Virus genome (UHGV): UHGV-0084588 | Reading direction: 5' to 3' (one strand) | Length of the DNA stretch: 64,000 bases | DNA from: a virus | Shown here: in pieces, positions 3,361 through 63,078 of the stretch | Numbering within the stretch: the first letter of the stretch is position 1 | Layout of the letters: the number at the start of each line of letters is the position of its first letter | Program-made: the position numbers and the translations under genes | The notes under the pieces: model-generated | What the model saw: the letters and a program-made list of their open reading frames with translations, nothing else | Database searches by the model: none | What the model was told of the DNA's origin: nothing

Positions 3361-3383
3361 TTTGATATTTAGCTGCAAAATGA

Positions 3384-3431
3384 CCGCCTACCGCCCGATT
3401 CTATGGGCGGTAGGTGTTTTTATTTTTTTTT
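3384..3431 (+). terminator. rho-independent terminator
   Basis: GC-rich inverted repeat CCGCCTACCGCCC...GGGCGGTAGGTG followed by a T-tract of about 14 nt. Confidence 0.75.
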
Positions 3432-21855: not shown

Positions 21856-21890
21856 TACCCTACTCCCGTTAAGGAGTAGGGTACTTTTTA
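21856..21890. terminator. bidirectional terminator between convergent genes
   Basis: TACCCTACTCC-cgttaa-GGAGTAGGGTA hairpin flanked by A/T-rich runs, between the plus gene ending at 21772 and the minus gene ending at 21888. Confidence 0.7.
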
Positions 21891-23639: not shown

Positions 23640-23692
23640 AAAATAAAAAAATACCTACCTCCCGTAATAGGAGGTAGGTATATCTTTTTTTC
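23640..23692. terminator. bidirectional terminator
   Basis: A-run, then ATACCTACCTCC-cgtaata-GGAGGTAGGTAT, then T-run, between convergent genes. Confidence 0.8.
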
Positions 23693-23700
23693 ACTGTCGA

Positions 23701-24372
23701 TTACAGCCCTTGCTCTAACGCAAACGCTTTTATCGAATCGTAATCACGCGCCTCAGCCCAAGCCCTGACTTCTTTTTTCTGCTCAGACATTGCGTGGTGT
23801 AGTCTTTGATCACGCGCAACGATTGCTGCCATCAGCGCTTTGCACTGCTCTAACGAAAAAGGTTCGATGCGGGTGTTAGCCGTGTCCAACCAATAACTCG
23901 GTGCTGTTTCAGACTGGATATACTGGCCCAACATTTGACGAGACGTTTCGTCCGCTTGGAAGTAGCGACCATCGACTTCAATATATCCGTGGCGCTGATC
24001 TTCATAACGGTGTTCCATCTCCAACATGATTTTCTGGATATCGAGATAGATGTAACGCGCCGTCGAACGCATATTCGTTCGAATCTCTTCCAGGTTAATC
24101 TCCAGAACGTCAGTAATGAATTCTTTTGCTTTGTTCAGTGTAAACTTCGACTCGATAGGAGACATTTCGTAAGTTTTCATCTGGGCTAAAGCTTCTTCAT
24201 CACTCATCCCTTCAATCAACTTGTAGTGCAGTAATGCACAGAACCCCGTACGTCCACGGTCTTCGTTACCTACACGTTCCATGTAGTTACCATGGCGGTC
24301 AATTGGTAGATCGTGCGCGAAATAACGTGCGCGAATCTCTTCTTTCGTTAAGCTTTTGTTAGAAGCAGACAT
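23701..24372 (-). CDS. hypothetical protein (last gene of the radical SAM block)
   Basis: 223-aa ORF overlapping the upstream gene by about 25 nt. Confidence 0.55.
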   Translation of the reverse strand: MSASNKSLTKEEIRARYFAHDLPIDRHGNYMERVGNEDRGRTGFCALLHYKLIEGMSDEEALAQMKTYEMSPIESKFTLNKAKEFITDVLEINLEEIRTNMRSTARYIYLDIQKIMLEMEHRYEDQRHGYIEVDGRYFQADETSRQMLGQYIQSETAPSYWLDTANTRIEPFSLEQCKALMAAIVARDQRLHHAMSEQKKEVRAWAEARDYDSIKAFALEQGL

Positions 24373-24914
24373 TCTTCTTCTCCAACCATACCTAATTCTT
24401 GCAGCAAGCCAAAATCAATCAACTGGAAGGTTTCAGAGAGATCGTTTGACCACACCACGTTTGCAATGTCGCGTTCTTCATCGGATAATTGCGGTAACAC
24501 ATTTTCGTTGAACGTCTGATGCTCTACGTAATAAGCATCGTAGATAGACGTAGAACGCAAGCAACGGATTGGCAGTCTTGGGAAAGACACCGCTAATGCA
24601 GCAATAGATGCGCTGCTCGGATTCTCCGCAGAATAGCGAAGCAATTCGATTTTGTGGCGCGGATAGTCCAGTACGCGTTGCTCGAAACCCGGATTACGTT
24701 TTTCGATTTCAACAACGGACTCATGACCTGTTTCTGTACAGTAAACGGGAATCATCACGTTTAGCCCGTACTTAATTAACAGAGGTTTAATCTCATCTGT
24801 AAAGTCTTCGCCAGGGATAATGGCGTGAACGTTATAGAGTTTATGTTTGCGCAGAAAACGCTCAACCAGATGGAGTTTACGCTTCGTAAAATTGTGGATC
24901 AGAATTGATTTCAT
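24348..24914 (-). CDS. hypothetical protein
   Basis: Start taken at the internal ATG at 24914 (GAGG about 9 nt upstream); overlaps the 3' end of the radical SAM gene. Confidence 0.45.
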   Translation of the reverse strand: MKSILIHNFTKRKLHLVERFLRKHKLYNVHAIIPGEDFTDEIKPLLIKYGLNVMIPVYCTETGHESVVEIEKRNPGFEQRVLDYPRHKIELLRYSAENPSSASIAALAVSFPRLPIRCLRSTSIYDAYYVEHQTFNENVLPQLSDEERDIANVVWSNDLSETFQLIDFGLLQELGMVGEEECLLLTKA

Positions 24915-26211
24915 TATTTGCCTCAGTAGGTTGTGCATTTAAAGCACGTTTAGCTTGCTCACGCTCACGCGTACATTTCGGACAGTAACAAACAGACGAA
25001 TCGTGCAGTGACGATGCGTGGACGGTACCCGTACGTTGACGCCAGTATTCTGCTGCCATCAGTTTTGCGGTCGTCCAGCCACATTGACGACGTTCAGCGT
25101 GGTACGCCTTACGGTCTTCCAGTGTCCCTTCACCGTTTTCGTAGGAAGCAGCTGCACAGCTGCCACAACCGTGTTTCATCGGACAGCCTAAGCACGTTTC
25201 AGGGTAGTTAGTATATTGCGTCTGAATCTCTTCCAGCAGCTTCCCGTCATCTAAACTAACGAACTCGCGACCAACTAATTCAAACACCGCAGAACGTGAC
25301 GTTACCGTTGACATAAAACGGTTACAACCGTATACCTTGCGGTCAAAACCTAAACAGGTCATGAACGTTAACGTACCACAGAACGGACGTAGGCGATCTG
25401 GGTTATAACGATGCGTGTCGTCATACAGCAGCTTATCGCGCCAATCTGGGTCCCAAATCTGACGGAAATCCAGACCTTCGGGAATGATATGTGACAACAC
25501 GTTACGTGGATTGGTGTGCAACCCTTTCTCAATCCAATAATCCATCACGTCGATCATCTGCAACGCAATATCCGTTGCCATGCTCCGTGGAAGAATATCT
25601 TCGTACGTAACGTTACCTGAAATCGTACCGCCACCGGCAACATCGATTAGCGATTTCATACTCGCTGCATAATGCGGTAACGTTTCGGTCGTAAAGGTTG
25701 CCTTGATACCCAGTTCAGCAATACCGACTTCTTTTAAGTAGTTATAGCCACGAACAGCGGCTTCGTAAGAACCTTGACGCGTCGTGGTAAAGATACGATA
25801 GCGGTCATGGACTTCTGGTAAACCGTCGATAGAAACACCGATGGAGAGTTTGTCTTTCCAACGCTCAACAATCTCACGGTTTAACGGGCGATCTAACAAC
25901 GTACCGTTAGTTGAGATACTGAACATATACGGGCGATTGTGCTCCTTACACAACTGTTCTGCGGTTTCGAACGCCGCTAACAGCAGTTTCGGTTGCATAA
26001 AAGGCTCACCGCCGATGATATCAATAATGACGTCGATGTTCGGAATATCTTTATCGCGCTCAAAACACGCGTGTAAGAAATCCACGATATCCGCCGCTTT
26101 GTTATTACGCGGATACTTACGTTCGTAACAATACTCACAGTCTAAGTTACAAGACAGATTCGTTACCACCTGGTAAGTACGTTGAGAACGTGGTGCTTCA
26201 TTATTGCTCAT
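24877..26211 (-). CDS. radical SAM enzyme with C-terminal SPASM-like Cys cluster
   Basis: CNLDCEYC (CxxxCxxC) at residues 21-28, GGEPF SAM-binding motif, and C-terminal CLGCPMKHGCGSC plus additional Cys, as in SPASM maturases. Confidence 0.75.
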   Translation of the reverse strand: MSNNEAPRSQRTYQVVTNLSCNLDCEYCYERKYPRNNKAADIVDFLHACFERDKDIPNIDVIIDIIGGEPFMQPKLLLAAFETAEQLCKEHNRPYMFSISTNGTLLDRPLNREIVERWKDKLSIGVSIDGLPEVHDRYRIFTTTRQGSYEAAVRGYNYLKEVGIAELGIKATFTTETLPHYAASMKSLIDVAGGGTISGNVTYEDILPRSMATDIALQMIDVMDYWIEKGLHTNPRNVLSHIIPEGLDFRQIWDPDWRDKLLYDDTHRYNPDRLRPFCGTLTFMTCLGFDRKVYGCNRFMSTVTSRSAVFELVGREFVSLDDGKLLEEIQTQYTNYPETCLGCPMKHGCGSCAAASYENGEGTLEDRKAYHAERRQCGWTTAKLMAAEYWRQRTGTVHASSLHDSSVCYCPKCTREREQAKRALNAQPTEANNEINSDPQFYEA

Positions 26212-27118
26212 CTTTGCTTATCCTTTTACGCTCTGCATAAATCACGCGTTTAATGTACTCGTAAGCACCTACTCCAATAGAGCAAGCGAGCTGATTGCAG
26301 CCACCGTTTAAGATAGCTGGGGCATTCTGAAGCTGATGTTCTGTTCCATCTGCGTTCAAATACAACTCTTCGCTACAAACATTACACTCGTTTTCGAAAA
26401 TCTTGCTGACAGACACGCCGCACGATTCTCCAGTTTGGACGTTCAACCGTTCCATATTCTCCTGAATTTTTAAATAGCCATAAACGAAGTTCATGACGTG
26501 ATCAGGAGACAATGGTTTTGGCATCTGCGCATCAAACATTAGAGAAAACGCACGGGGACGATAGTGGTACATCGCACGATGCAAATCCACAATATCTTCA
26601 TACCAGCGCTTATCCGCTAACTGGTCACGCGTAATCACAGCCCAGGTTTGGAAATTATCGAGTTCGTATAACGCTTCCAATGCTTCGTGGCTATCCTCTT
26701 CAATAAAGCGCATAAAAGGGCGCTCAGAACGCTTGTAGCCATCAATTGATACAAACACATGCTCAAAGTCTTTTAGCAGCGTAAGATGCGATTTACGCAG
26801 TTTTAAGCCGTTGGTATACAAGTGATGCTCAAGGTGCGGATGAGACACTTTCAATTCGTTAACGAAATCCTCAATCTTACGTTGGACGAGTAGCGGCTCG
26901 CCACCGGTCCAATGTATTTCCTTAATAGCCGGATTCTCTTGTAGTAATTCCAGGATACGTTCGCGTTGAAAAGCACGAGACGAATCTTCACGATTCATGT
27001 AGTAGGCTCCACCGCAGAAACTACAATCTAGGTTACACTTAGACGTCGTAACTACGGACAATATAGTGGGTTTATCGTACAACTTCGTCGAGATCCTGGA
27101 TTCCACATTGTCTATCAT
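26201..27118 (-). CDS. radical SAM enzyme (second, shorter)
   Basis: CNLDCSFC (CxxxCxxC) near the N-terminus, GGEPLL motif, and a C-terminal Cys cluster (CNVCSEE...GGCNQLACS); overlaps the downstream gene by 11 nt. Confidence 0.7.
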   Translation of the reverse strand: MIDNVESRISTKLYDKPTILSVVTTSKCNLDCSFCGGAYYMNREDSSRAFQRERILELLQENPAIKEIHWTGGEPLLVQRKIEDFVNELKVSHPHLEHHLYTNGLKLRKSHLTLLKDFEHVFVSIDGYKRSERPFMRFIEEDSHEALEALYELDNFQTWAVITRDQLADKRWYEDIVDLHRAMYHYRPRAFSLMFDAQMPKPLSPDHVMNFVYGYLKIQENMERLNVQTGESCGVSVSKIFENECNVCSEELYLNADGTEHQLQNAPAILNGGCNQLACSIGVGAYEYIKRVIYAERKRISKDEQ

Positions 27119-27138
27119 TGCAGGTTGCTCCAGTATTT

Positions 27139-28026
27139 TTAAATATAATCGATGGCGAATAAAGGATCTTCGTCGAAGTTAACACCTGGTTTTAAAATCA
27201 GTGGTGAATTATACGCTTCCAGTAAACGGTTAAGTTCGTTGTAGCGGCTATTCATCCGTTTGAGGTCTTCTAAGGTTACAACACGGTCCAGCATCGGTTT
27301 AACCGCTGCGGCTTCCTCGTCAGTCAATTTAACTTTCGACAACAGGAAACTGACGAGTTTAGAAATGTCCGCTTCGGTGGCTGGACTCTGACCGAAACGT
27401 ACCTGAACCATGTGCTGCATCCACGGTTTACGAATGCGTTTCGTAATCACGTGTTCGTCAGTAATGGCTTTCCAAACCGAACGCTCACGAATCCATTCAA
27501 ACTTATAGCTGTACGCCATTAAGTCAGCCAGATGCGTAATTCCGAGTTCTTGATAACCTTCAATATCGATATACGGTTCCGTATCAAAATACTCTTTGGT
27601 ATCCTTTTCAACCAAAGCGTAGTAGTTAGGGAACGCACCCAGGTAGTCTGGGCTCCACCAACGACGGGCCATCGGTTTAGCATCGAGTTCTTCAAACGGC
27701 GTGAACATAAGTTCTAAGTCAACTGTATTATTTAACACACCGTCGCTAAAGAAATATTTGCCGTCGATAAGTTTACCGCGTTGTGAGTTATCACCGGTAA
27801 AGACAACAATGCTTTCGCCAACCATATCACGAATTTTAAACGTGTTCTCAACCGTAAAGTTGTCACGATTAGCGATATGACGGCCGCGCACTTTCGGCCA
27901 TTCCCCAGGAATCATGGCAATTAAACGTACGTCGTCGGCAAGATGGTGACGTACCGAATCAGGGGAAGAGATGTGAAGTGGATGATTGAACGTTGTCGTA
28001 TATGCAAGATGTAGATCGTTCTTCAT
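27139..28026 (-). CDS. hypothetical protein
   Basis: 295-aa ORF between the Cys-rich genes and the radical SAM genes. Confidence 0.55.
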   Translation of the reverse strand: MKNDLHLAYTTTFNHPLHISSPDSVRHHLADDVRLIAMIPGEWPKVRGRHIANRDNFTVENTFKIRDMVGESIVVFTGDNSQRGKLIDGKYFFSDGVLNNTVDLELMFTPFEELDAKPMARRWWSPDYLGAFPNYYALVEKDTKEYFDTEPYIDIEGYQELGITHLADLMAYSYKFEWIRERSVWKAITDEHVITKRIRKPWMQHMVQVRFGQSPATEADISKLVSFLLSKVKLTDEEAAAVKPMLDRVVTLEDLKRMNSRYNELNRLLEAYNSPLILKPGVNFDEDPLFAIDYI

Positions 28027-28094
28027 TGATTACTCCAATTATTTCACGGTCAAACGGTCATTCAGGCTATAGAGTCTACCACTGGAGGGTTTAC

Positions 28095-28301
28095 TTACCT
28101 TCCCCCCGCACCTTTACTACAGCTACCACTGCACGCCCAGCTACAACTGCCGTTACAGTTATAGTGGGTTAATGGTAATCCTGCCAAGTTATTCGTCGTG
28201 GACACCGTACCTTGGTTAGCGATGTAGTTATTCGCGTCTGAGGTTTTGATGTAGCCTTCAACCTGACCGATTCTGTCTCGAATATTTTTGAGGGAAATCA
28301 C
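28095..28301 (-). CDS. Cys-rich leader/core small protein 3 (short core)
   Basis: GTG start with AGGAGGTGA RBS; leader MISLKNIRDRIGQVEGYIK..., then HYNCNGSCSWACSGSCSKGAGGR. Confidence 0.6.
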   Translation of the reverse strand: MISLKNIRDRIGQVEGYIKTSDANNYIANQGTVSTTNNLAGLPLTHYNCNGSCSWACSGSCSKGAGGR

Positions 28302-28311
28302 TTCTCACCTC

Positions 28312-28707
28312 CTATCGTCCTGTACACGCTGAGCAACCGCCAGTACAGCTACTGGAACACGATGCTGTGCACCCGCCAGAACAAGTGCCTGAGCACAGGT
28401 TAGCACACCCACCTGAACAACTCCCCGAGCACCCTGAACACGAAGTGGAACACCCTGACGTACAGTTTGCAGAACATGAGGAACCACAACCGCCGGACGC
28501 GTTCCCAGTACACCCACCAGAACAACTCGAACAGGTAAACGAACACGTACCCGCACAGTCGTAATGCGCACGATTCTGACCGCCGAACAGGTCTGCGTTA
28601 TTCGTACCTTTATTGCGGATATAGTTCTGTACACCCGTGGTATTTTTCAGTGCGATACTATCGACGTTATTAAGACGTCTTACTAATTCAGATAAACCGA
28701 CTGCCAT
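28312..28707 (-). CDS. Cys-rich leader/core small protein 2
   Basis: Leader MAVGLSELVRRLNNVDS... then an ~80-aa core of C-[ST]-x-x-C repeats (HYDCAGTCSFTCSSCSGGCTGN...); GGGGGAAG RBS. Confidence 0.65.
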   Translation of the reverse strand: MAVGLSELVRRLNNVDSIALKNTTGVQNYIRNKGTNNADLFGGQNRAHYDCAGTCSFTCSSCSGGCTGNASGGCGSSCSANCTSGCSTSCSGCSGSCSGGCANLCSGTCSGGCTASCSSSCTGGCSACTGR

Positions 28708-28716
28708 TTCTTCCCC

Positions 28717-29109
28717 CTATCGTCCAGAGCATCCGCCGGAGCAAGCACCCGAACAGTTATGCGAACAACGTCCAGTACAACTTCCGGTACAGGTACTTGT
28801 ACAACTGCTAGAACAACCGCCAGAACAGCCAGAGCATCCTGAACAGTTACCCCCACAGGACGAAGAACAGCTACCCACACAAGCGGCTGAACAGTTACCT
28901 GAACAGCTAGAGCAACCGTGACTACATCCGTTAGAACATGTCCACGAACACGTTCCTCCGCAGTCTAAACGTGAAGGTGTCCAACCAGAAAACGAATCTG
29001 CCGCGTTATGCGCTTTCGATGCGACCTGCGCATCGACACGAGGGCCGGTAGCGACTGTATTTTCTACTACGGTTAACCGATCGCGCATTTGTTTAACACT
29101 AATCGCCAT
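28717..29109 (-). CDS. Cys-rich leader/core small protein 1
   Basis: Leader MAISVKQMRDRLTVVEN... then SRLDCGGTCSWTCSNGCSHGCSSCSGNCS... ending GCSGR; AAGGAAG RBS. Confidence 0.65.
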   Translation of the reverse strand: MAISVKQMRDRLTVVENTVATGPRVDAQVASKAHNAADSFSGWTPSRLDCGGTCSWTCSNGCSHGCSSCSGNCSAACVGSCSSSCGGNCSGCSGCSGGCSSSCTSTCTGSCTGRCSHNCSGACSGGCSGR

Positions 29110-29113
29110 TACG

Positions 29114-29164
29114 CTTCCTTAAAATTAAAATAGAGGAGGAACCAGCCATAAGCATAGTTCCTCC
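29114..29164 (-). terminator. hairpin/terminator between the fibre genes and the Cys-rich cluster
   Basis: 8-bp stem GGAGGAAC/GTTCCTCC with a 14-nt loop; on the minus strand it is followed by TCTATTTTAATTTT. Confidence 0.5.
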
Positions 29165-29174
29165 TGTAATAAAA

Positions 29175-30374
29175 TTATCTCGTACCTGCTTCTGCCTGAA
29201 CGTCATCACGGGACGTCAAGTTAGCGTTAACGTGCACTGAAGCCTGAACCACACCGCCGTATTTCTTGTGCAGGTAACCTGTGTGTGGGTTATCCGCCGC
29301 AATATGGTTTTGTAGGTTCTGATTCGCCTGACTGATTGCGTTCGTGTTATTCGCAACCTGTTGTTTAAGCGCATCCAAGTTTTGTTGCAGATTATCAATT
29401 TTCTGATCGGTCTCATTACCCCGCTGTTCTAACGCAGCAATGCGCTGAATCGCTTGGTTGAGCTTGGTGTTCAGATCGTTGATATTTTTCTGTAACTGTA
29501 ACACTAACGAGTTTAGGTTCGCCAGTGCCAGTGCCATTTTCTGGTAGTTTTGTGCAACGACGTTAAGTTGGTCGTTCCACGCTTCCAGAGATTTGACAAC
29601 AGCATCAATACGTTTTCCTAACGCTTCGTCCGCTTTCTTCAATGCGTTGATTTCAGTAATCGTTGCATCAATGGCAGACTGCACGTCGCGGATAAGCGCA
29701 CGGATTTCCGTTTCCGTTAACCCGTTAACCTGATGAATATCCAGATGGTGGACATTACCAGTGGAGTTAATGTGCGCGTTCAGCGCGTCCAGGAAATCGT
29801 TTTTCAGGCTATCGAGAATCGCTTTGATGTTCTCAAGCTGTACAGCATCGCCCGCAGTTATCGCATCTTTAATACCGGCGAGCACTGTAATGATGTATTC
29901 GAAGCCGTAGATATCGCCGACGTCTTTATACGTTGGTGCCGAAGGAAACGTGTCCGGCACATTTCGCAAGTCTTTAAAGCCAACAGTTCGATTATCGAGA
30001 TTCAACTCGGCAATCGCTTGCTCAATCGCGGTCACAACTGCAGACTGTGGACCACCAACTACTTGCGCCGATACCGTGATATCGGTCGGAATCGCGGTGT
30101 TCGTTACAACAACCGCCATTACTACTTCCCGGTTCTTCGTCAATTTCTCGTAAGCCGGGTGTGCAAAAATCAGCTCATAGTCCGTTCCACGCTCATACGT
30201 CGCTCCAGGTCGATTGGCAACCCGCAAGCGGAACGTATCGGCATAAAACGGGCCATCAGGGAAAGCAAACGCACGGTTAACTTTACCTGTACCTAACGTA
30301 ATCTGACGCTCCACGGCGTTAGAGGTTAGGGTTCCCGTTAAATCTAAAGGGTATTGGTATACAATGGAGGCCAT
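29175..30374 (-). CDS. fibre-like protein with N-terminal anchor motif and coiled-coil shaft
   Basis: Start at the ATG at 30374 (AAGGAGAG RBS); N-terminal FAFPDGPFYADTFRLRV...GTDYELIF shared with the three giant tailspikes; long heptad-like region. Confidence 0.6.
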   Translation of the reverse strand: MASIVYQYPLDLTGTLTSNAVERQITLGTGKVNRAFAFPDGPFYADTFRLRVANRPGATYERGTDYELIFAHPAYEKLTKNREVVMAVVVTNTAIPTDITVSAQVVGGPQSAVVTAIEQAIAELNLDNRTVGFKDLRNVPDTFPSAPTYKDVGDIYGFEYIITVLAGIKDAITAGDAVQLENIKAILDSLKNDFLDALNAHINSTGNVHHLDIHQVNGLTETEIRALIRDVQSAIDATITEINALKKADEALGKRIDAVVKSLEAWNDQLNVVAQNYQKMALALANLNSLVLQLQKNINDLNTKLNQAIQRIAALEQRGNETDQKIDNLQQNLDALKQQVANNTNAISQANQNLQNHIAADNPHTGYLHKKYGGVVQASVHVNANLTSRDDVQAEAGTR

Positions 30375-30414
30375 GGCCACTCTCCTTAATCCGAGACGTC
30401 CTTGTCTCGTGGCG

Positions 30415-33400
30415 TTAAGATGTAAACATAAGATTGAACTGGAGCTTATCGATATCGCGAGTTTGTGCTGGGTTAACCGCATCGTACGTGGTTGCCACGT
30501 AGACCGTTAACGTGCCGTCAGAAAACGCGGTTTTCACCGGTGGTGTAGTCCCTGTCTGTCCATCAGTTACAATGACGACAGGTTGAGCCGGGAGTTGACG
30601 AAACTGACTCTTAACCGCTTTATACACCAAACCAGATTGTGCCGCTTGCTCTGTGGCGGTGTACACGATAAACGGTGTGTCGATATCTGTCTGTTTAATG
30701 ACAGTGTTCGTCTCAACGTCAATCAGCTGAACAGCACCAAATTTGGTCCGGTAACTATCGTATTCATTTTTTGGAATGACAAACGTAGCATGAAGGCGGA
30801 CTTCGGCGGCTGGCTTAAATCCCGCGTGTTCTTTTTCCAGGTAACTGTTAGCAGTTAGCGTTACTGTCTGTTCAGTCATCGTACCGCCAGACTGATTTAG
30901 CCCGTAACGAACTTGAGTTATACCTGTCGGGGCCGCAAGCCTGATTTTCAGTCGACGATTAGTAGTACCAGGATCGCCAGGTACTTTAACACGCAGACTC
31001 AATGCCAGATATGCATACTCGCCGGTAGTCGGTTTCGTATACGCACCCAACCACTTCATGTTCGCGGTTGCTGCTTGTTTGTTCTCAGAAGCAGTAGCCG
31101 CTGCAACGTTCGCAGCAACCGCTTTCTGCCAGAACTGGTCAGCGCAGTTCTCATACGCCACCCTGCTGATACTTTTATAACCTGAATAGGTTTCCTGTAC
31201 CGGCAACCTGGGCCGCGTTGCAATCCCGGACAACGTATTCCATTTCTGGCCATCGACATACCCAGCACCCTTGCTCGCAGATGCTGTAATGGCTTTAACG
31301 GGTTTATTAACCACTGTTAATAGTGGACCAGTTTTCCTGTCGAACGCCTGCGCCACATCGTGCTGATCAACAACCGAGGCATGATTTTCCAGCTCTTTTA
31401 CACGACCTAACCGTTTTACTTTATCGATACTGATATCCGTAATACGGTTCGAATCAGTGGTTACTGTCCCAACAAACAGTCTCGACGAGGTATCAGCTAA
31501 CTGCTCTAAACCGATGCGGTATTGGGCAGTAGAACCGACCACTTCAGCATAAACGTAGAATGTCTGGTTAGCGTGATTAGTCGGGAATTCATCGCTTAAA
31601 TCAACGGACCATCTTGGAACGGTATATCTTTTATTTCCAAAACTTAACTCGGTTTCCTCCGTCAGATAGAAATTCCAACCGCTCTGTGTTTGTACGCCGC
31701 CAATAATAATCTTATCGATAACAGTATATTTTTTGTTAAACAAATCAGAGATTCTATACTGTTCGCCACCGAGATACAACTCGTTTAAATCTTCCGAGTT
31801 ACAAGTCAATAGCGCGATGCCCGAGAGATCGGGTATATAGACTTCAGATGTATTATTCAGCGTATACGTATAGCCCCACGCCCGATGAATTTCGCCGGTA
31901 AACCATTCTCCTTTTTTAGTCAAGTTTATCCCAAAAGCAAAAGAAATCTCTGATCCTACAAGATTCCCGCCAACCAGGTTATGTATTGAGAATCTGAACT
32001 TTTGTCCGTCTTGCGAATAAAGGAAAACTTGACCGGAGCGTTGTTTAAGTTCACCATTAAAAGCTGTGGGTGAGAGATTAATGGCGTTACTGGCCACTTT
32101 TTCCCTGAACGTCATCATTCTCGCTTCCGAACTAACGAACCTTATGACCCCGTTGGTTATAGTCGGTTTTACCTGAAAGAAGTAAAAAGCAAACTTATTT
32201 ACCCCGTCAGTGTCTTTATAGATAAGACTCACTATCGCGATACAAAGCGGACCACCAGACATCGTTTGACCAAGCACCCAAAAGGACAAACTGTAGTTGT
32301 TCTTTTTGGTCTTAGCTACGCTAATCCGCTCATAGGCGTTGCCGTTAGAAGCCCCAGAGAACTGGCTGGACTGAACAATATTAGTCAACTTCGCCCATTC
32401 TGCCGCATCGATAGACAACCGATCACTAGCCACCGTAGTGGTACCGTAAACAACTTTACATGGTTTACTTTCAGCACCGATAAAGTAAGCCCCATCTAGT
32501 AGACCTTTCGGTATGTCTGGCGTAACAACCAGCGGTATATTTGTCAATACGCCGTATTCGTTCGCTTTTTTTTCAACACGGCGGGATGTTGGTCCAAACC
32601 CGCCGTATCCAGGATAACCATAAGTCGTATCTTTATCATATTCGGCTTCAATGAAATAAGCCGTTTTTTGATGTTTAAGCCATACTTTGTTTGTTCCTGG
32701 GAAGAACAATGGGAAGGTCATAGACGGTTTCCACACCGAACCCACCACAGGGTTTATCCGATTTTCAAACGTAGATTGCCCCTCATACCCCGCACTCAAC
32801 TTAACATAGTCCAGATAACTAACTCCTTCTGGGAGTTTCTGGTAATGGAGAGATGGTGCAAGTTGTTTTTCTGTCGAACAGCAGCAAGAATAAACCATAT
32901 CACCGACACAGATTCTATTGTCGGCCATATAGCCAGAACTTCGAGTAGCCCATTTCCATTTCAGCTCTATTTTTGTTCCGTCTTTTAAGTAGCAACCTGT
33001 AGTATCGATTTTGATTGGGAAGATGTTAGTTGTCTCTAACCCAACCTCCCCGGTTAATAGGTCGAGACGATAAGCACCATTCCATGGCCCGAATGTGGTA
33101 CCTTTCGTTGAAGAAAAACCAAGACAAACGCCAGACACGCCGACGGTTAACAAGTGACCGTCCTTAACAACGGGCGTTATCCATCTTGACACCCCTCTAG
33201 TTAATTGTAAATTCACTGTCCACAACGCTTTGCCTTCCGCAGTGAAGTAGGCAAGACGCTTCGTATTCGGATTATCTACATCGAACGCGCCAGGTTCAAC
33301 CAAATCGGCACACTTACCGATTTTTCGTGTAGAGCTTAAATCAACCTGTTCAAACCGATCGGTTTTATTAAGCCGCAATAACCCAACACGGAACATAGGT

Positions 33401-35601: not shown

Positions 35602-35619
35602 CGTAAAGACTCCTACTTT

Positions 35620-35658
35620 TAAATAAAATGGATACCCCTCCCCATTACAGGGAGGGGT
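35620..35658 (-). terminator. hairpin between tailspike genes
   Basis: ACCCCTCC-ccattacag-GGAGGGGT, followed on the minus strand by a U-rich stretch and the RBS of the next gene. Confidence 0.5.
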
Positions 35659-35695
35659 TACCTACGGACACACAACTGCCCGCAGGCAGTCTGTC

Positions 35696-44213: not shown

Positions 44214-44282
44214 TATCTACTCCTATAGTCCGTGGGCGTCGAAGTTCATACTATGACTTGAATCTATAGAGGAAAAAGAGCT

Positions 44283-54842: not shown

Positions 54843-54847
54843 CGTTT

Positions 54848-54890
54848 GGGAGAACCTTCGGGTTCTCCCTTCTCTGTTTTTTTTTCTTTT
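54848..54890 (+). terminator. rho-independent terminator
   Basis: GGGAGAACC-ttcg-GGTTCTCCC followed by a long T-tract. Confidence 0.8.
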
Positions 54891-54921
54891 TACACCACAC
54901 TCCGTCTTTATGGAGGTGGGT

Positions 54922-57426
54922 ATGCTAAAAGTTGAACGCATTATACTCAAAGGTTTTACGGGGATGGGATTACATGAAATTGAAACTTTCGATTTCACTA
55001 TCCAGTCTCCAACAACAATTATCCTGGGTGGGAACGGTTGCGGGAAAACCAGTCTACTGTCTGTATTCTTACCCTTAGCACCGGCTAAAACTGAATTCAG
55101 AGACGGCGGTTCTTACACGAACTACTGTTTAGTTGGTGATCAACGGTATCGATTCAAAGTTGCCCGTAAAGGTAACTCTTTGGTTTGCGATATTGAAAAT
55201 CTGACCACGGGAGCAAAGATCGTCGAGCAAGGTAATGCGAAGGTCTACAACTCCCGTGTTGAAGAAATCACGGGTATTACGAAAGAAATTAAAGAACTAT
55301 TAAATGGTGATGTTTTGTTAACCGATGCGGGAACCGAATTACGCCGTAAATGGTTTTACCGTTTAAGTACCTCTGATCTCACATACGCGTTAGGGTTTTA
55401 TCAACGTTTGCGTAAAAACCTTACCGCCTTAAATGGGGGTATTGAAATCACCAGTCGCAAGATTGCCGAATTACGGACGCGTGTTATTGAGAACGAGGAA
55501 GAACGACAACAATTAGCAACGAGATTAAAAGGTCTGGAATCGGATTTACGTGAACTGAACCGAGAAATCGAACAGTTGCCAGGATTAAATCGTGCTGTCA
55601 CGATCGAAACAATCCAAGCGTTATTAAACGGTTTGGGTCCAACCATCGACGCAATATTACAACATCGTGGTGGGTTGCCTACTGATGAACAGATACTGGT
55701 CGCCCGACAAAATGAAGCGACAGCCCGCGAAGCCGTCGTTTCTACCGAAACAGAGGTATCGATGTTGAATAAAGATTTATCGCTATTGATGGATGAGTCA
55801 ACACGACAAGACTACCTGATGCGGAATCACGAAGGTCTCAAGAATACACTGGCACGTTTACGTGAGTTACTTACCAAGTGGGACACCGAACATCTCTTTC
55901 CAGGTTTATTTAACGATAACGTTAATTTAGACCAACTTCGTGCGGCTACCGATGCGCGTGTTTGGGGACAACGGTTGGGGACAACACTGGACGCTATTCA
56001 TTCAACCGAGAAACTCAATGTTTTGGAAGAACGTCTTCTGGTGATGGATCAAAAAACCGCAGGATTACGGGATAGACTCCAGCGAGTGGAGAACGTTTTA
56101 CAGAATTTAAATCACGAGCGTAACCACTACTTAGAAACGGCAGAAGTGGATTGTCCGCAGTGTCGGTTTAAGTTTCGGCCAGGTGTTACGCGTTCTTTAC
56201 CTGAACTCGAGTCATCGATTCGTGGACAACAACAGCAGCGGACGGAACTGCAAACGCAGTTAGAGACTTTATTACGCGATCGTGTTGAATTAGAATCTGA
56301 TGTAACTTATATGCGGCAGGTTCGTGAGATTGTACTGACGTATTCAAAAGACCCTGTATTGAGCATGTTCTTTAAGCGTTTGCAAGAACGTAACGTTTTC
56401 ACAGAGTCTCGCGAGCAGTTCGGGAGTCTATGCGCAGCGTTTGACGGTGAGTTGTACTCTGCTATTGAGTACCATGAAACCCGACAACGGTTAGTGAAAG
56501 CGGAAAAAGAATGGCAGGATGCCGTGGCGGCCGTTGGTAACGTCGATGGTGCTTTACAACAAAAGATCGCCTTCCAACAGTCACGGTTAGGTAAAGCCAC
56601 AGAGATGCTCTCAATGCGTCGTAGAGAGCACGAACTGGCTAACACGACACTTACCTATCTAGTGAATGTTAAACGTGCTGTAGATGATTTCAGTGCGTTA
56701 TTCGAACGGTTAGAGAGTGATGTTAAGGTTACTTTGACAAATACGGTCGTCGAGGAGCTCTTACGAGTGCGGGAAGGGAAGCTGGATGCTTTTACAACTG
56801 CACGCGAACGTTATCGTCAGATGGAAAACGAATTGAATCAGCTCAACAGTTTGGAGCGCGAACTTACAGACTTACAAGCCCAACAGTTCAATAACAAACT
56901 GATGATTCAAGCCTTCTCGCCAGAAAAGGGTGTACTTAGAAAGTATTTTTACAACGCTATCGTTAGAATCACAGAGTTAATGACGCGTTATATCGAACAG
57001 GTCTGGACGTACCCCATGCGCGTTATGCCCTGTGATCTCACTGACGGTGATTTGGATTATACTTTTCCTGTCCAGCTAAAAACGCACCCTGAGCCTGTTC
57101 CTGACGTGCGTAAAGGGTCTAAGGCACAGCGTGCTATATTTAATCTGATGTTCAGACTGACTGCGTACAAAGCGTTGAAGTTGCATCAGTTTCCGTTGCT
57201 TTTGGATGAGCCTTCGGAAGGCATGGACGAGGAGCACCGTAATAACCTGGTCGGCTTTATTAAAACGTTAGCAAACTCGGGAGAATTTTCACAGCTGTTG
57301 GTAGTCTCCCACGAAGCCGAGGTTCATTCTAAACTTAATGAAGCATCGTACTGTGTCATCGAACCGGAAGGAGTGACATTGCCTGCGGTGTATAACGAAG
57401 GAGTAAAAATTGTTTATGCAAACTGA
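54922..57426 (+). CDS. SMC/Rad50/RecN-like ABC-type ATPase with long coiled-coil
   Basis: Start at the ATG at 54922 (GGAGGTGGG RBS). N-terminal Walker A ILGGNGCGKTSLLSVF; about 550 aa of Glu/Leu/Arg/Gln-rich coiled-coil with a central CPQC hook-like motif; C-terminal Walker B LLLDEPSEGMD and VVSHEAEV. Confidence 0.65.
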   Translation: MLKVERIILKGFTGMGLHEIETFDFTIQSPTTIILGGNGCGKTSLLSVFLPLAPAKTEFRDGGSYTNYCLVGDQRYRFKVARKGNSLVCDIENLTTGAKIVEQGNAKVYNSRVEEITGITKEIKELLNGDVLLTDAGTELRRKWFYRLSTSDLTYALGFYQRLRKNLTALNGGIEITSRKIAELRTRVIENEEERQQLATRLKGLESDLRELNREIEQLPGLNRAVTIETIQALLNGLGPTIDAILQHRGGLPTDEQILVARQNEATAREAVVSTETEVSMLNKDLSLLMDESTRQDYLMRNHEGLKNTLARLRELLTKWDTEHLFPGLFNDNVNLDQLRAATDARVWGQRLGTTLDAIHSTEKLNVLEERLLVMDQKTAGLRDRLQRVENVLQNLNHERNHYLETAEVDCPQCRFKFRPGVTRSLPELESSIRGQQQQRTELQTQLETLLRDRVELESDVTYMRQVREIVLTYSKDPVLSMFFKRLQERNVFTESREQFGSLCAAFDGELYSAIEYHETRQRLVKAEKEWQDAVAAVGNVDGALQQKIAFQQSRLGKATEMLSMRRREHELANTTLTYLVNVKRAVDDFSALFERLESDVKVTLTNTVVEELLRVREGKLDAFTTARERYRQMENELNQLNSLERELTDLQAQQFNNKLMIQAFSPEKGVLRKYFYNAIVRITELMTRYIEQVWTYPMRVMPCDLTDGDLDYTFPVQLKTHPEPVPDVRKGSKAQRAIFNLMFRLTAYKALKLHQFPLLLDEPSEGMDEEHRNNLVGFIKTLANSGEFSQLLVVSHEAEVHSKLNEASYCVIEPEGVTLPAVYNEGVKIVYAN

Positions 57427-62431: not shown

Positions 62432-62468
62432 ACCCCTACTCCTCCGGGAGTAGGGTTAATTCTTTTTC
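62432..62468 (+). terminator. rho-independent terminator
   Basis: CCCTACTC-ctccgg-GAGTAGGG followed by TTAATTCTTTTT. Confidence 0.8.
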
Positions 62469-63035: not shown

Positions 63036-63078
63036 AATAAAAGCTACCCTACTCCTTCTGGAGTAGGGTAATCTTTTT
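63036..63078. terminator. bidirectional terminator between convergent genes
   Basis: A-run, then TACCCTACTCC-ttct-GGAGTAGGGTA, then T-run; same stem sequence as the hairpin at 21856. Confidence 0.8.

What the first reader, a model, noticed from the sequence alone, without database searches (positions are those of the whole stretch)
29114..29164. Hairpin/terminator separating the tail-fibre genes from the Cys-rich/radical SAM cluster
An 8-bp GC-rich stem (GGAGGAAC/GTTCCTCC) followed on the minus strand by a U-rich tract lies between the last fibre gene and the first Cys-rich peptide gene. It may attenuate read-through and set the ratio of fibre to peptide or enzyme transcripts, or mark a separately regulated unit.
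Basis: seen in the sequence. Interest (0 to 1): 0.4.

Follow-up and report, generated by a model that had tools for sequence, protein, structure and literature searches.

The report
Conserved hairpin nested in phage promoter
The hairpin is real and conserved in every related giant phage found, but it sits inside a promoter-like signal (TTAC, 15 bases, TATG), so it probably both ends tail-fibre transcripts and restarts transcription for the next gene cluster; this is an unusual layout of two ordinary signals.

Summary
The hairpin is real and larger than described. On the gene (minus) strand it spans 29165-29134: a 9-bp perfect stem that extends to 11+3 bp, about -19.8 kcal/mol. It lies in the 65-nt gap between the fibre-gene stop codon and the first Cys-rich ORF.

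The window is a new relative of SPN3US-like jumbo phages. All 22 distinct versions of this gap, from at least five genera, have a hairpin at the same place. The arms differ between lineages but co-evolve, and G.U pairs favour the sense strand.

As a canonical terminator it is weak. The U tail is interrupted in the window (score below threshold), and it is absent in Derbicusvirus.

The invariant parts are a TATG at the loop apex and a TTAC/WWAC box exactly 15 nt upstream. This is the same spacing as the mapped phiKZ middle promoter P78M. The same TTAC-N15-TATG unit is conserved upstream of the SbcC-like gene in these phages.

Best reading: a terminator-promoter junction. The stem acts on read-through fibre transcripts, and new transcripts start at G 29147 in the loop. 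No transcript data exist, so this is inferred. It is a new variant of known kinds and of moderate interest.

The parts
29175..29177 (-). TAA stop codon of the 399-aa coiled-coil fibre-like gene, the homologue of SPN3US gp167 ('virion structural protein 20')
29166..29169 (-). TTAC box, at -22..-19 relative to the loop TATG G. It is a WWAC box in all 22 homologous gaps: at -22..-19 in 19 and at -23..-20 in 3.
   Evidence: same spacing in phiKZ P78M
29134..29165 (-). RNA hairpin. The 5' arm is AGGAGGAACUA (29165-29155), followed by bulge U 29154. The inner helix pairs GCU (29153-29151) with GGC (29147-29145), and the loop is UAU (29150-29148). The 3' arm is UGGUUCCUCCU (29144-29134). About -19.8 kcal/mol.
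29147..29150 (-). TATG at the hairpin apex, invariant in 22 of 22 gaps. The predicted non-virion RNA polymerase (nvRNAP) start site is G 29147, by analogy with phiKZ T(-3)ATG(+1).
   Evidence: PMC4666361
29153..29156 (-). A second, upstream TATG (ACTATG) inside the 5' arm. It is present only in the Seoulvirus-like clade and is not at the class spacing.
29120..29133 (-). Interrupted U-rich tail, CUAUUUUAAUUUUA. It would be the terminator tail for read-through RNA, or the 5' UTR for transcripts started at 29147.
29107..29120 (-). SD AAGGAAG (29120-29114) and start ATG (29109-29107) of the first Cys-rich ORF (130 aa)

Best explanation
The 65-nt gap is a compact terminator-promoter junction for the phage's own multisubunit RNA polymerase.

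(1) Shown. A hairpin whose arms co-evolve forms in RNA of the fibre-gene strand, directly after the fibre stop codon.

Inferred. In transcripts reading through from the fibre operon, the hairpin, together with the U-rich/TTAT tail, ends or attenuates them, or at least caps their 3' end.

(2) Shown. The unit TTAC-N15-TATG is superimposed on the hairpin. The 15-nt spacer is the 5' arm, the TATG is the loop apex, and the 3' arm lies at +2..+14.

Inferred. This unit is a phiKZ-type 'middle' promoter used by the non-virion RNA polymerase (nvRNAP), starting at G 29147. Transcripts started there lack the 5' arm, cannot form the hairpin and so escape it. They carry a 38-nt leader with the SD of the first Cys-rich gene.

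Net effect. The Cys-rich/radical-SAM module is expressed as its own unit, probably earlier than or independently of the late fibre genes, and is insulated from fibre-operon read-through.
For: Hairpin:
- It is present at the same place in 22 distinct homologous gaps from Seoul-, Erskine-, Machina-, Wellington- and Derbicusvirus, IMG/VR and metagenomes.
- Each version folds with z = -2.8 to -5.2.
- The arm-swap test gives native -20.1 against chimeric -10.5 kcal/mol, with 1 of 20000 permutations as good.
- Close relatives show C-G to U-A double changes: L074 against L016, and Phobos against EarlPhillipIV.
- The sense strand is favoured, -19.2 against -16.2 kcal/mol and 19 against 3 G.U pairs.
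- TTAT follows the stem in 9 of 13 lineages (my reading of the sequences), as in the phiKZ terminator motif (PMC10914365).

Promoter:
- TATG is invariant, and the WWAC box is at a fixed distance, while the stems change.
- In phiKZ the late and middle start sites are T(-3)ATG(+1), with AAanTTACc upstream for middle promoters (PMC4666361).
- In phiKZ P78M, TTAC lies at exactly -22..-19 from the TATG G. It is the only TTAC-N15-TATG in 40 kb of phiKZ.
- The same TTAC-N15-TATG precedes the SbcC-like gene in the window (54890-54912) and in SaP7, Stratton, Huxley and Kwan, with unrelated spacers.
- Of 14 TTAC-N15-TATG hits in 147 kb of these phages, 9 are intergenic by my reading of their positions.
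- The divergent gap that heads the fibre operon holds an invariant back-to-back TATG palindrome in five genera.
- All four divergent gene starts in the window have a TATG 31-61 nt upstream.
Against: - No transcript 5' or 3' ends are available for any SPN3US-like phage.
- The window's tail scores below the classical terminator threshold (d=-26.6). Only Stratton, Huxley and L016 score positive, and Derbicusvirus has no U tract, yet it keeps the hairpin.
- Column-wise covariation on one consensus structure is inconclusive: 67.9% of cells pair, and 47 of 500 shuffles reach the covariation score. The cause is that lineages pair in different registers. RNAalifold found no consensus structure.
- Purified phiKZ nvRNAP does not use middle promoters in vitro, so an unknown factor would be needed (PMC4666361; PMC10612078).
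- TATG is not enriched in hairpin loops window-wide. The SbcC-locus promoter has its terminator upstream rather than nested. The nesting is therefore specific to this locus and remains unexplained.
- The gene order is fixed in every contig found, so the element cannot be assigned to the upstream or the downstream gene by synteny breaks.
Confidence: 0.45

Rival explanations
1. Plain intrinsic terminator or attenuator. The hairpin and U-rich tail reduce read-through from the fibre genes into the Cys-rich/radical-SAM genes. The conserved loop TATG and the TTAC box have no promoter role.
For: - The hairpin lies directly after the stop codon on the sense strand. Its arms co-evolve and G.U pairs favour the sense strand.
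- Good U tracts follow in Stratton, Huxley, L016 and L017.
- phiKZ-like phages use many hairpin+TTAT terminators (PMC10914365; PMC11512511).
Against: - This reading does not explain why TATG and WWAC stay invariant at a fixed 15-16-nt spacing while the stems turn over.
- It does not explain the identical architecture at P78M and at the SbcC locus.
- The tail is weak in the window and absent in Derbicusvirus.
- The phage's usual terminators have 3-7-nt loops without TATG.
Confidence: 0.17
2. Promoter only. The inverted repeat works at the DNA level. Either it extrudes so that the non-template TATG is presented single-stranded to nvRNAP, or it is an operator for a dimeric regulator that overlaps the start site.
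For: - phiKZ nvRNAP binds the TATG of the non-template strand with the bases splayed into a pocket (PMC12809450).
- Sequences around TATG affect promoter strength without any visible consensus (PMC4666361).
- The TATG is always at the apex.
- The hairpin persists in Derbicusvirus without a U tract.
Against: - phiKZ p119L has no inverted repeat around its TATG, and neither does the SbcC-locus promoter.
- TATG is not enriched in hairpin loops.
- G.U pairs, bulges and shifting registers are typical of RNA stems, not of protein-binding palindromes.
Confidence: 0.13
3. Post-transcriptional element. The hairpin is an RNA processing or stability site, or it couples translation through the small ORF that starts at the loop AUG. 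Under the processing version, cleavage in the UAU|G loop would give the fibre mRNA a stable 3' end and give the downstream mRNA its 5' end.
For: - The structure is on the sense-strand RNA.
- Processing has been raised as an alternative origin of phiKZ 'middle' 5' ends (PMC10612078).
- An AUG is always in the loop, and an SD-like GAGG lies in the 5' arm in most lineages.
Against: - The small ORF is 8-28 aa, with varying frame, end point and sequence. The SD-like motif is missing in Wellington- and Derbicusvirus.
- The T before ATG and the TTAC box are invariant, which a start codon does not require.
- The phiKZ study that selects primary 5' ends (ONT-cappable-seq) recovered 33 start sites with the middle-promoter motif (PMC10914365).
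- The stem is too short for RNase III (my knowledge).
Confidence: 0.1

Closest known systems
phiKZ middle promoters that also carry TATG (P78M, P62M; Ceyssens 2014, as described in Yakunina 2015, PMC4666361)
   Same: TTAC box and TATG with the same 15-nt spacing. TTAC lies at -22..-19 from the TATG G, verified on the phiKZ sequence for P78M. The surroundings are AT-rich. The phage belongs to the phiKZ-like group: it is related to SPN3US, and the early-promoter core ATATATTAC is also present.
   Different: The upstream part is T-rich (TTTTATTAC) rather than AAAATTACC. The spacer and the first transcribed bases form a conserved GC-containing hairpin, which P78M lacks. No start site has been mapped in any SPN3US-like phage.
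Intrinsic terminators of phiKZ and 201phi2-1 (motif CCYCCCC-HWWD-GGGRRGG followed by TTAT; PMC10914365, PMC11512511)
   Same: A stable hairpin directly after a gene on the sense strand, followed by a U-rich or TTAT stretch in most lineages. The same phage group uses such terminators widely. In the window they occur at 21859, 23651, 35634, 45552, 62435 and 63048.
   Different: The stem sequence is unrelated: purine-rich GGAGG is in the 5' arm. The loop region is longer and carries an invariant TATG. The tail is weak in the window and absent in Derbicusvirus.
Hairpin promoters of coliphage N4 virion RNA polymerase (my knowledge; N4 is mentioned in PMC10612078)
   Same: A conserved inverted repeat at a phage promoter that could expose promoter bases as single strands.
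   Different: N4 uses a single-subunit polymerase, a 5-7-bp stem with a 3-nt loop on the template strand, and host SSB. Here the polymerase is multisubunit, the asymmetry favours the non-template (RNA-sense) strand, and other promoters of the same class have no hairpin.

Membership tests
Canonical intrinsic (rho-independent) terminator | Stable G+C-containing hairpin on the sense strand just downstream of a stop codon | tested here: met
   -19.8 kcal/mol, 9 nt after the TAA. Conserved in 22 of 22 gaps.
Canonical intrinsic (rho-independent) terminator | Uninterrupted U tract directly after the stem (d'Aubenton-Carafa-type score d>0) | tested here: not met
   Window T=1.78, d=-26.6. The score is positive only in Stratton, Huxley and L016, and there is no U tract in Derbicusvirus. 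The score was calibrated on E. coli RNAP, not on phage nvRNAP.
Canonical intrinsic (rho-independent) terminator | Transcript 3' ends map in the tail | not testable with these tools
   No transcriptome of an SPN3US-like phage was found.
phiKZ-type conserved terminator motif | Stem CCYCCCC ... GGGRRGG with a 4-nt AT-rich loop | tested here: not met
   The stem is AGGAGGAACUA/UGGUUCCUCCU and the loop region contains TATG.
phiKZ-type conserved terminator motif | TTAT directly after the stem | tested here: inconclusive
   The window has CTATTTTA, with no TTAT. TTAT is present in 9 of 13 lineage versions (my reading).
phiKZ-type middle promoter (nvRNAP-dependent) | TTAC-containing box upstream of the start site (AAanTTACc, centred about -24) | tested here: met
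   TTAC at -22..-19, as in phiKZ P78M. The A-rich part is replaced by a T-rich one.
phiKZ-type middle promoter (nvRNAP-dependent) | TATG at the start site (present in P62M and P78M, and the defining motif of late promoters) | tested here: met
   Invariant in 22 of 22 gaps.
phiKZ-type middle promoter (nvRNAP-dependent) | A primary transcript starts at the G, and the promoter is used by nvRNAP at middle times | not testable with these tools
   Needs 5'-end mapping or in vitro transcription.
N4-type hairpin promoter | Short hairpin on the template strand, recognised by a single-subunit virion RNAP | tested here: not met
   The G.U asymmetry favours the non-template/sense strand. These phages use multisubunit RNAPs (PMC7598289).
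Curated RNA families (Rfam 15) | Match to any covariance model | tested here: not met
   No match at E<=1 in 28000-30500.

The most novel reading that the evidence does not exclude
The hairpin is part of the promoter mechanism. The inverted repeat extrudes, or breathes, so that the non-template TATG is offered ready-melted at a loop apex to the beta-lobe pocket of the non-virion RNA polymerase. This would be a structure-assisted promoter for a multisubunit phage polymerase, analogous in logic to N4 hairpin promoters. It would give a concrete answer to why a 4-base TATG can be specific.
Probability: 0.1. Interest if true: 0.7.

Novelty: new variant of a known kind. Interest (0 to 1): 0.4.

Why it matters
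Reviews state that middle and late promoters of polymerase-encoding jumbo phages cannot be predicted from sequence (PMC7598289). Here, comparison across genera recovers a TTAC-N15-TATG unit at two independent loci, with the same spacing as an experimentally mapped phiKZ middle promoter. This gives a testable promoter model for SPN3US-like phages.

The model predicts that the Cys-rich/radical-SAM module next to the tail fibres is a separately timed transcription unit.

The nesting of a co-evolving hairpin inside that promoter is an economical way to end one transcript and start the next within about 45 nt. It also provides a natural test case for how these polymerases terminate and initiate.

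Tried and rejected
- Sigma-70 promoter and simple terminator scan. Nothing significant was found and the hairpin was not listed, because its loop exceeds 8 nt. These phages do not use the host RNAP in any case.
- RNAalifold on a MAFFT alignment gave no consensus structure. A covariance-model alignment with pair counting was inconclusive, because lineages pair in different registers. I replaced these with an arm-swap energy test.
- A general class of 'TATG in hairpin loop' elements. Rejected: TATG is no more frequent in loops than other permutations of T, A, T, G.
- Hairpin as a general feature of TATG promoters. Rejected: phiKZ p119L and the SbcC-locus promoter have none.
- Small ORF from the loop ATG as a coding gene. 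Rejected: length, frame and sequence are not conserved.
- Early (virion RNAP) promoter. The window's early core CAGATATATATTAC occurs four times elsewhere. This site shares only ATTAC, and the upstream part is not conserved in relatives.
- Terminator for the + strand. No + strand gene is nearby and no U tract follows on that strand.
- Dissociating the hairpin from its neighbours by synteny breaks. All contigs found keep the same gene order.
- Conservation of the second TATG-loop hairpin at 3381-3416. There are no homologous loci in the phage collection.
- Supplementary start-site and terminator tables for phiKZ and 201phi2-1 are not held.
- Rfam gave no match.

Full report
**What is there.** The genes around the finding lie on the minus strand. 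A 399-aa coiled-coil 'fibre' gene, the homologue of SPN3US gp167, ends with TAA at 29177-29175. The first of three Cys-rich ORFs starts at 29109.

The 65-nt gap, read on the minus strand, is UUUUAUUAC-AGGAGGAACUAUGCUUAUGGCUGGUUCCUCCU-CUAUUUUAAUUUUAAGGAAGCGUA-AUG.

In RNA it extends to 11 bp, then a bulge, then a 3-bp inner helix with a UAU loop, at -19.8 kcal/mol. The tail is U-rich but interrupted.

The simple terminator scan missed it because of the nominal 14-nt loop.

**Is it more than chance?** The gap folds better than 299 of 300 dinucleotide shuffles (z=-3.3). However, stems of at least 11 bp occur about 21 times per shuffled window, against 72 observed, 27 of them in the 5.7% of the window that is intergenic. 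The single sequence is therefore only suggestive, and the decisive evidence is comparative.

**Where the window comes from.** It is a new relative of the SPN3US-like jumbo phages, which carry phiKZ-type multisubunit RNA polymerases. The nearest GenBank phages are about 70% identical. IMG/VR and metagenome contigs encode fibre or 295-aa proteins 93-100% identical to those of the window.

**Conservation.** I collected the homologous gap from Seoulvirus, Erskinevirus, Machinavirus, Wellingtonvirus and Derbicusvirus, from IMG/VR and from metagenomes. This gave 22 distinct sequences.
- Every one has a hairpin at the same place, -13 to -26 kcal/mol for the hairpin itself, with z = -2.8 to -5.2 for the whole gap.
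- The stems differ between lineages. Examples are AGGAGGAACUA/UGGUUCCUCCU, GAGCCGGACUAUG/CAUAGUCCGCUC, GAGGACCUGUC/GGCAGUGUCCUC, CACGGGCCUCGUC/GGCGAGUGCCCGUG and GGGCG..ACUC/GAGU.CGCCC.
- Column-wise covariation on one consensus structure failed, because the lineages pair in different registers. RNAalifold found nothing. On the covariance-model alignment 67.9% of cells pair, which is inconclusive.
- A register-free test was clear. Native 5'/3' arm pairs average -20.1 kcal/mol and chimeras between lineages average -10.5 (sd 3.2). Only 1 of 20000 permutations of the arms was as stable as the native set.
- Close relatives show clean C-G to U-A double changes.
- The sense strand folds better than the antisense strand (-19.2 against -16.2 kcal/mol) and uses 19 G.U pairs against 3.

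The selected structure is therefore in RNA, or in single-stranded DNA, of the gene strand.

**How good a terminator is it?** Measured by a d'Aubenton-Carafa-type score, it is poor in the window (T=1.78, d=-26.6). The score is positive only in Stratton, Huxley and L016. The Derbicusvirus versions go straight from the stem into the SD.

TTAT follows the stem in 9 of 13 lineages, by my reading of the sequences. This recalls the phiKZ terminator motif (PMC10914365). The stem itself does not match that motif.

The phage's usual terminators have 3-7-nt loops. Examples are the CCTACTCC...GGAGTAGG family at 21859, 62435 and 63048, and the hairpin at 35634-35658. Termination or attenuation is plausible, but it cannot be the whole reason for the conservation.

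**What is most conserved.** Apart from the stop codon, the SD and the start codon, the invariant block is TATG at the hairpin apex, present in all 22 sequences. An upstream WWAC box, mostly TTAC, lies at -22..-19 from the TATG G in 19 sequences and at -23..-20 in 3.

In phiKZ, late promoters are T(-3)ATG(+1). Middle promoters carry AAanTTACc upstream, and P62M and P78M also have the TATG (PMC4666361). nvRNAP reads the TATG of the non-template strand (PMC12809450).

I fetched the phiKZ sequence. P78M reads AAAATTACC-N14-TATG, with TTAC at exactly -22..-19. It is the only TTAC-N15-TATG in 40 kb of phiKZ.

**A second locus.** In the window the same unit lies at 54890-54912, upstream of the SbcC-like gene. 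Homology to relatives begins at the ATG at 54922. TTAC-N15-TATG is kept there in SaP7, Stratton, Huxley and Kwan with unrelated spacers; Phobos has TATA.

Of 14 TTAC-N15-TATG hits in 147 kb of these phages, 9 are intergenic by my reading of their positions.

**TATG as an initiator in this phage group.** The 69-nt divergent gap that heads the fibre operon has a back-to-back TATG palindrome, CATACTATG at 44247-44255, inside a core that is invariant in five genera. All four divergent gene starts in the window have a TATG 31-61 nt upstream. The early-promoter core ATATATTAC is also shared with phiKZ.

**Mechanism proposed.** The gap holds two overlapping signals.
- Read-through RNA from the fibre operon forms the hairpin and is ended, attenuated or 3'-capped there.
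- nvRNAP, with whatever factor middle promoters need, starts at G 29147 in the loop. Those transcripts lack the 5' arm, so they cannot form the hairpin. They carry a 38-nt leader with the SD; in relatives the leader is 26-41 nt.

What is shown: the structure, its co-evolution, the strand asymmetry, and the invariance and spacing of the motifs. What is inferred: termination, initiation and timing.

**Rivals.**
- A plain terminator does not explain the invariant TATG/TTAC spacing.
- A DNA-level hairpin promoter or an operator is disfavoured by the hairpin-free p119L and SbcC-locus promoters, and by the G.U pairs and bulges.
- A general TATG-loop class was tested and rejected.
- A coding small ORF was rejected.
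- RNA processing at the loop remains possible (PMC10612078). The phiKZ study that selects primary 5' ends nevertheless recovered start sites with the middle motif.

**Limits.** No transcriptome of an SPN3US-like phage was found. The gene order is fixed in all contigs, so the element cannot be tied to one neighbour. It is unexplained why the hairpin is nested inside the promoter here, whereas it lies upstream of the promoter at the SbcC locus.

**Verdict.** This is a real, conserved regulatory element built from two known kinds of signal in an unusual overlapping arrangement. It is a new variant of a known kind and of moderate interest.

Noticed in passing
window 23701-29109 (minus strand): The module has three Cys-rich ORFs of 130, 131 and 68 aa, each with a non-Cys N-terminal part followed by dense CxxxC/GCS repeats. 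They are followed by a 295-aa ORF, two Radical_SAM ORFs, a 196-aa ORF and a DUF4376 ORF. The order is the same in every relative found. It looks like a peptide/protein maturation module attached to the tail-fibre operon, and I found no paper on it. In several GenBank records the Cys-rich ORFs are missing or called on the opposite strand.
   Followed up: partly
window 44214-44282: The divergent 69-nt gap lies between the 1440-aa fibre-operon gene and a 420-aa virion gene. It holds the palindrome CATACTATG (44247-44255), a TATG on each strand, inside a core CGTCGA(A)GTTCATACTATGAC that is invariant in Seoul-, Erskine-, Machina- and Wellingtonvirus. It is probably a bidirectional late promoter.
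   Followed up: partly
window 54843-54922: An ordinary terminator hairpin with a T-run is followed by TTAC-N15-TATG (54890-54912) upstream of the SbcC-like gene. Homology to relatives starts at ATG 54922, so the longest-ORF start at 54910 is probably wrong and the leader would be only about 10 nt.
   Followed up: yes
window 3381-3430: The hairpin CGCCTACCGCC/GGCGGTAGGTG has a 10-nt loop ending in TATG and is followed by TTTTTATTTTTTTTT. The next gene probably starts at GTG 3449 (SD GGGAGG), not at the ATG in the loop. This would be a second hairpin with TATG in its loop, but no homologous loci were found to test conservation.
   Followed up: partly
window 11355, 15263, 47009, 51359 (+ strand): There are four exact copies of CAGATATATATTAC in intergenic gaps. 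They match the phiKZ early (virion RNAP) promoter core TATATTAC.
   Followed up: no
window 21859-21880, 62435-62454, 63048-63067; also 23651-23681, 35634-35658, 45552, 45875, 60898: A family of similar terminator hairpins, CC(C/T)ACTCC-loop-GGAGT(A/G)GG, several of them at convergent gene ends and readable on both strands. In the 35602-35695 gap inside the fibre operon two hairpins are conserved across genera and no TATG is present, so the 1728-aa gene must depend on read-through.
   Followed up: partly
window 12744, 17887, 53680 (+ strand): TTTACCTAAAGGAG is repeated three times just before start codons, in the form TTAC-N15-AATG. It is unclear whether this is only a shared ribosome-binding region or also a promoter element.
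   Followed up: no
L025 (Huxley) 9535, 9723, 10828; L026 (Kwan) 9999: Further intergenic TTAC-N15-TATG units lie near the baseplate and BhsA-like genes. In two of them the TATG sits in the 5' arm of a small hairpin (TATGAC-AAAC-GTCATA; CGTATGGC-ATTGA-GCCATACG).
   Followed up: no
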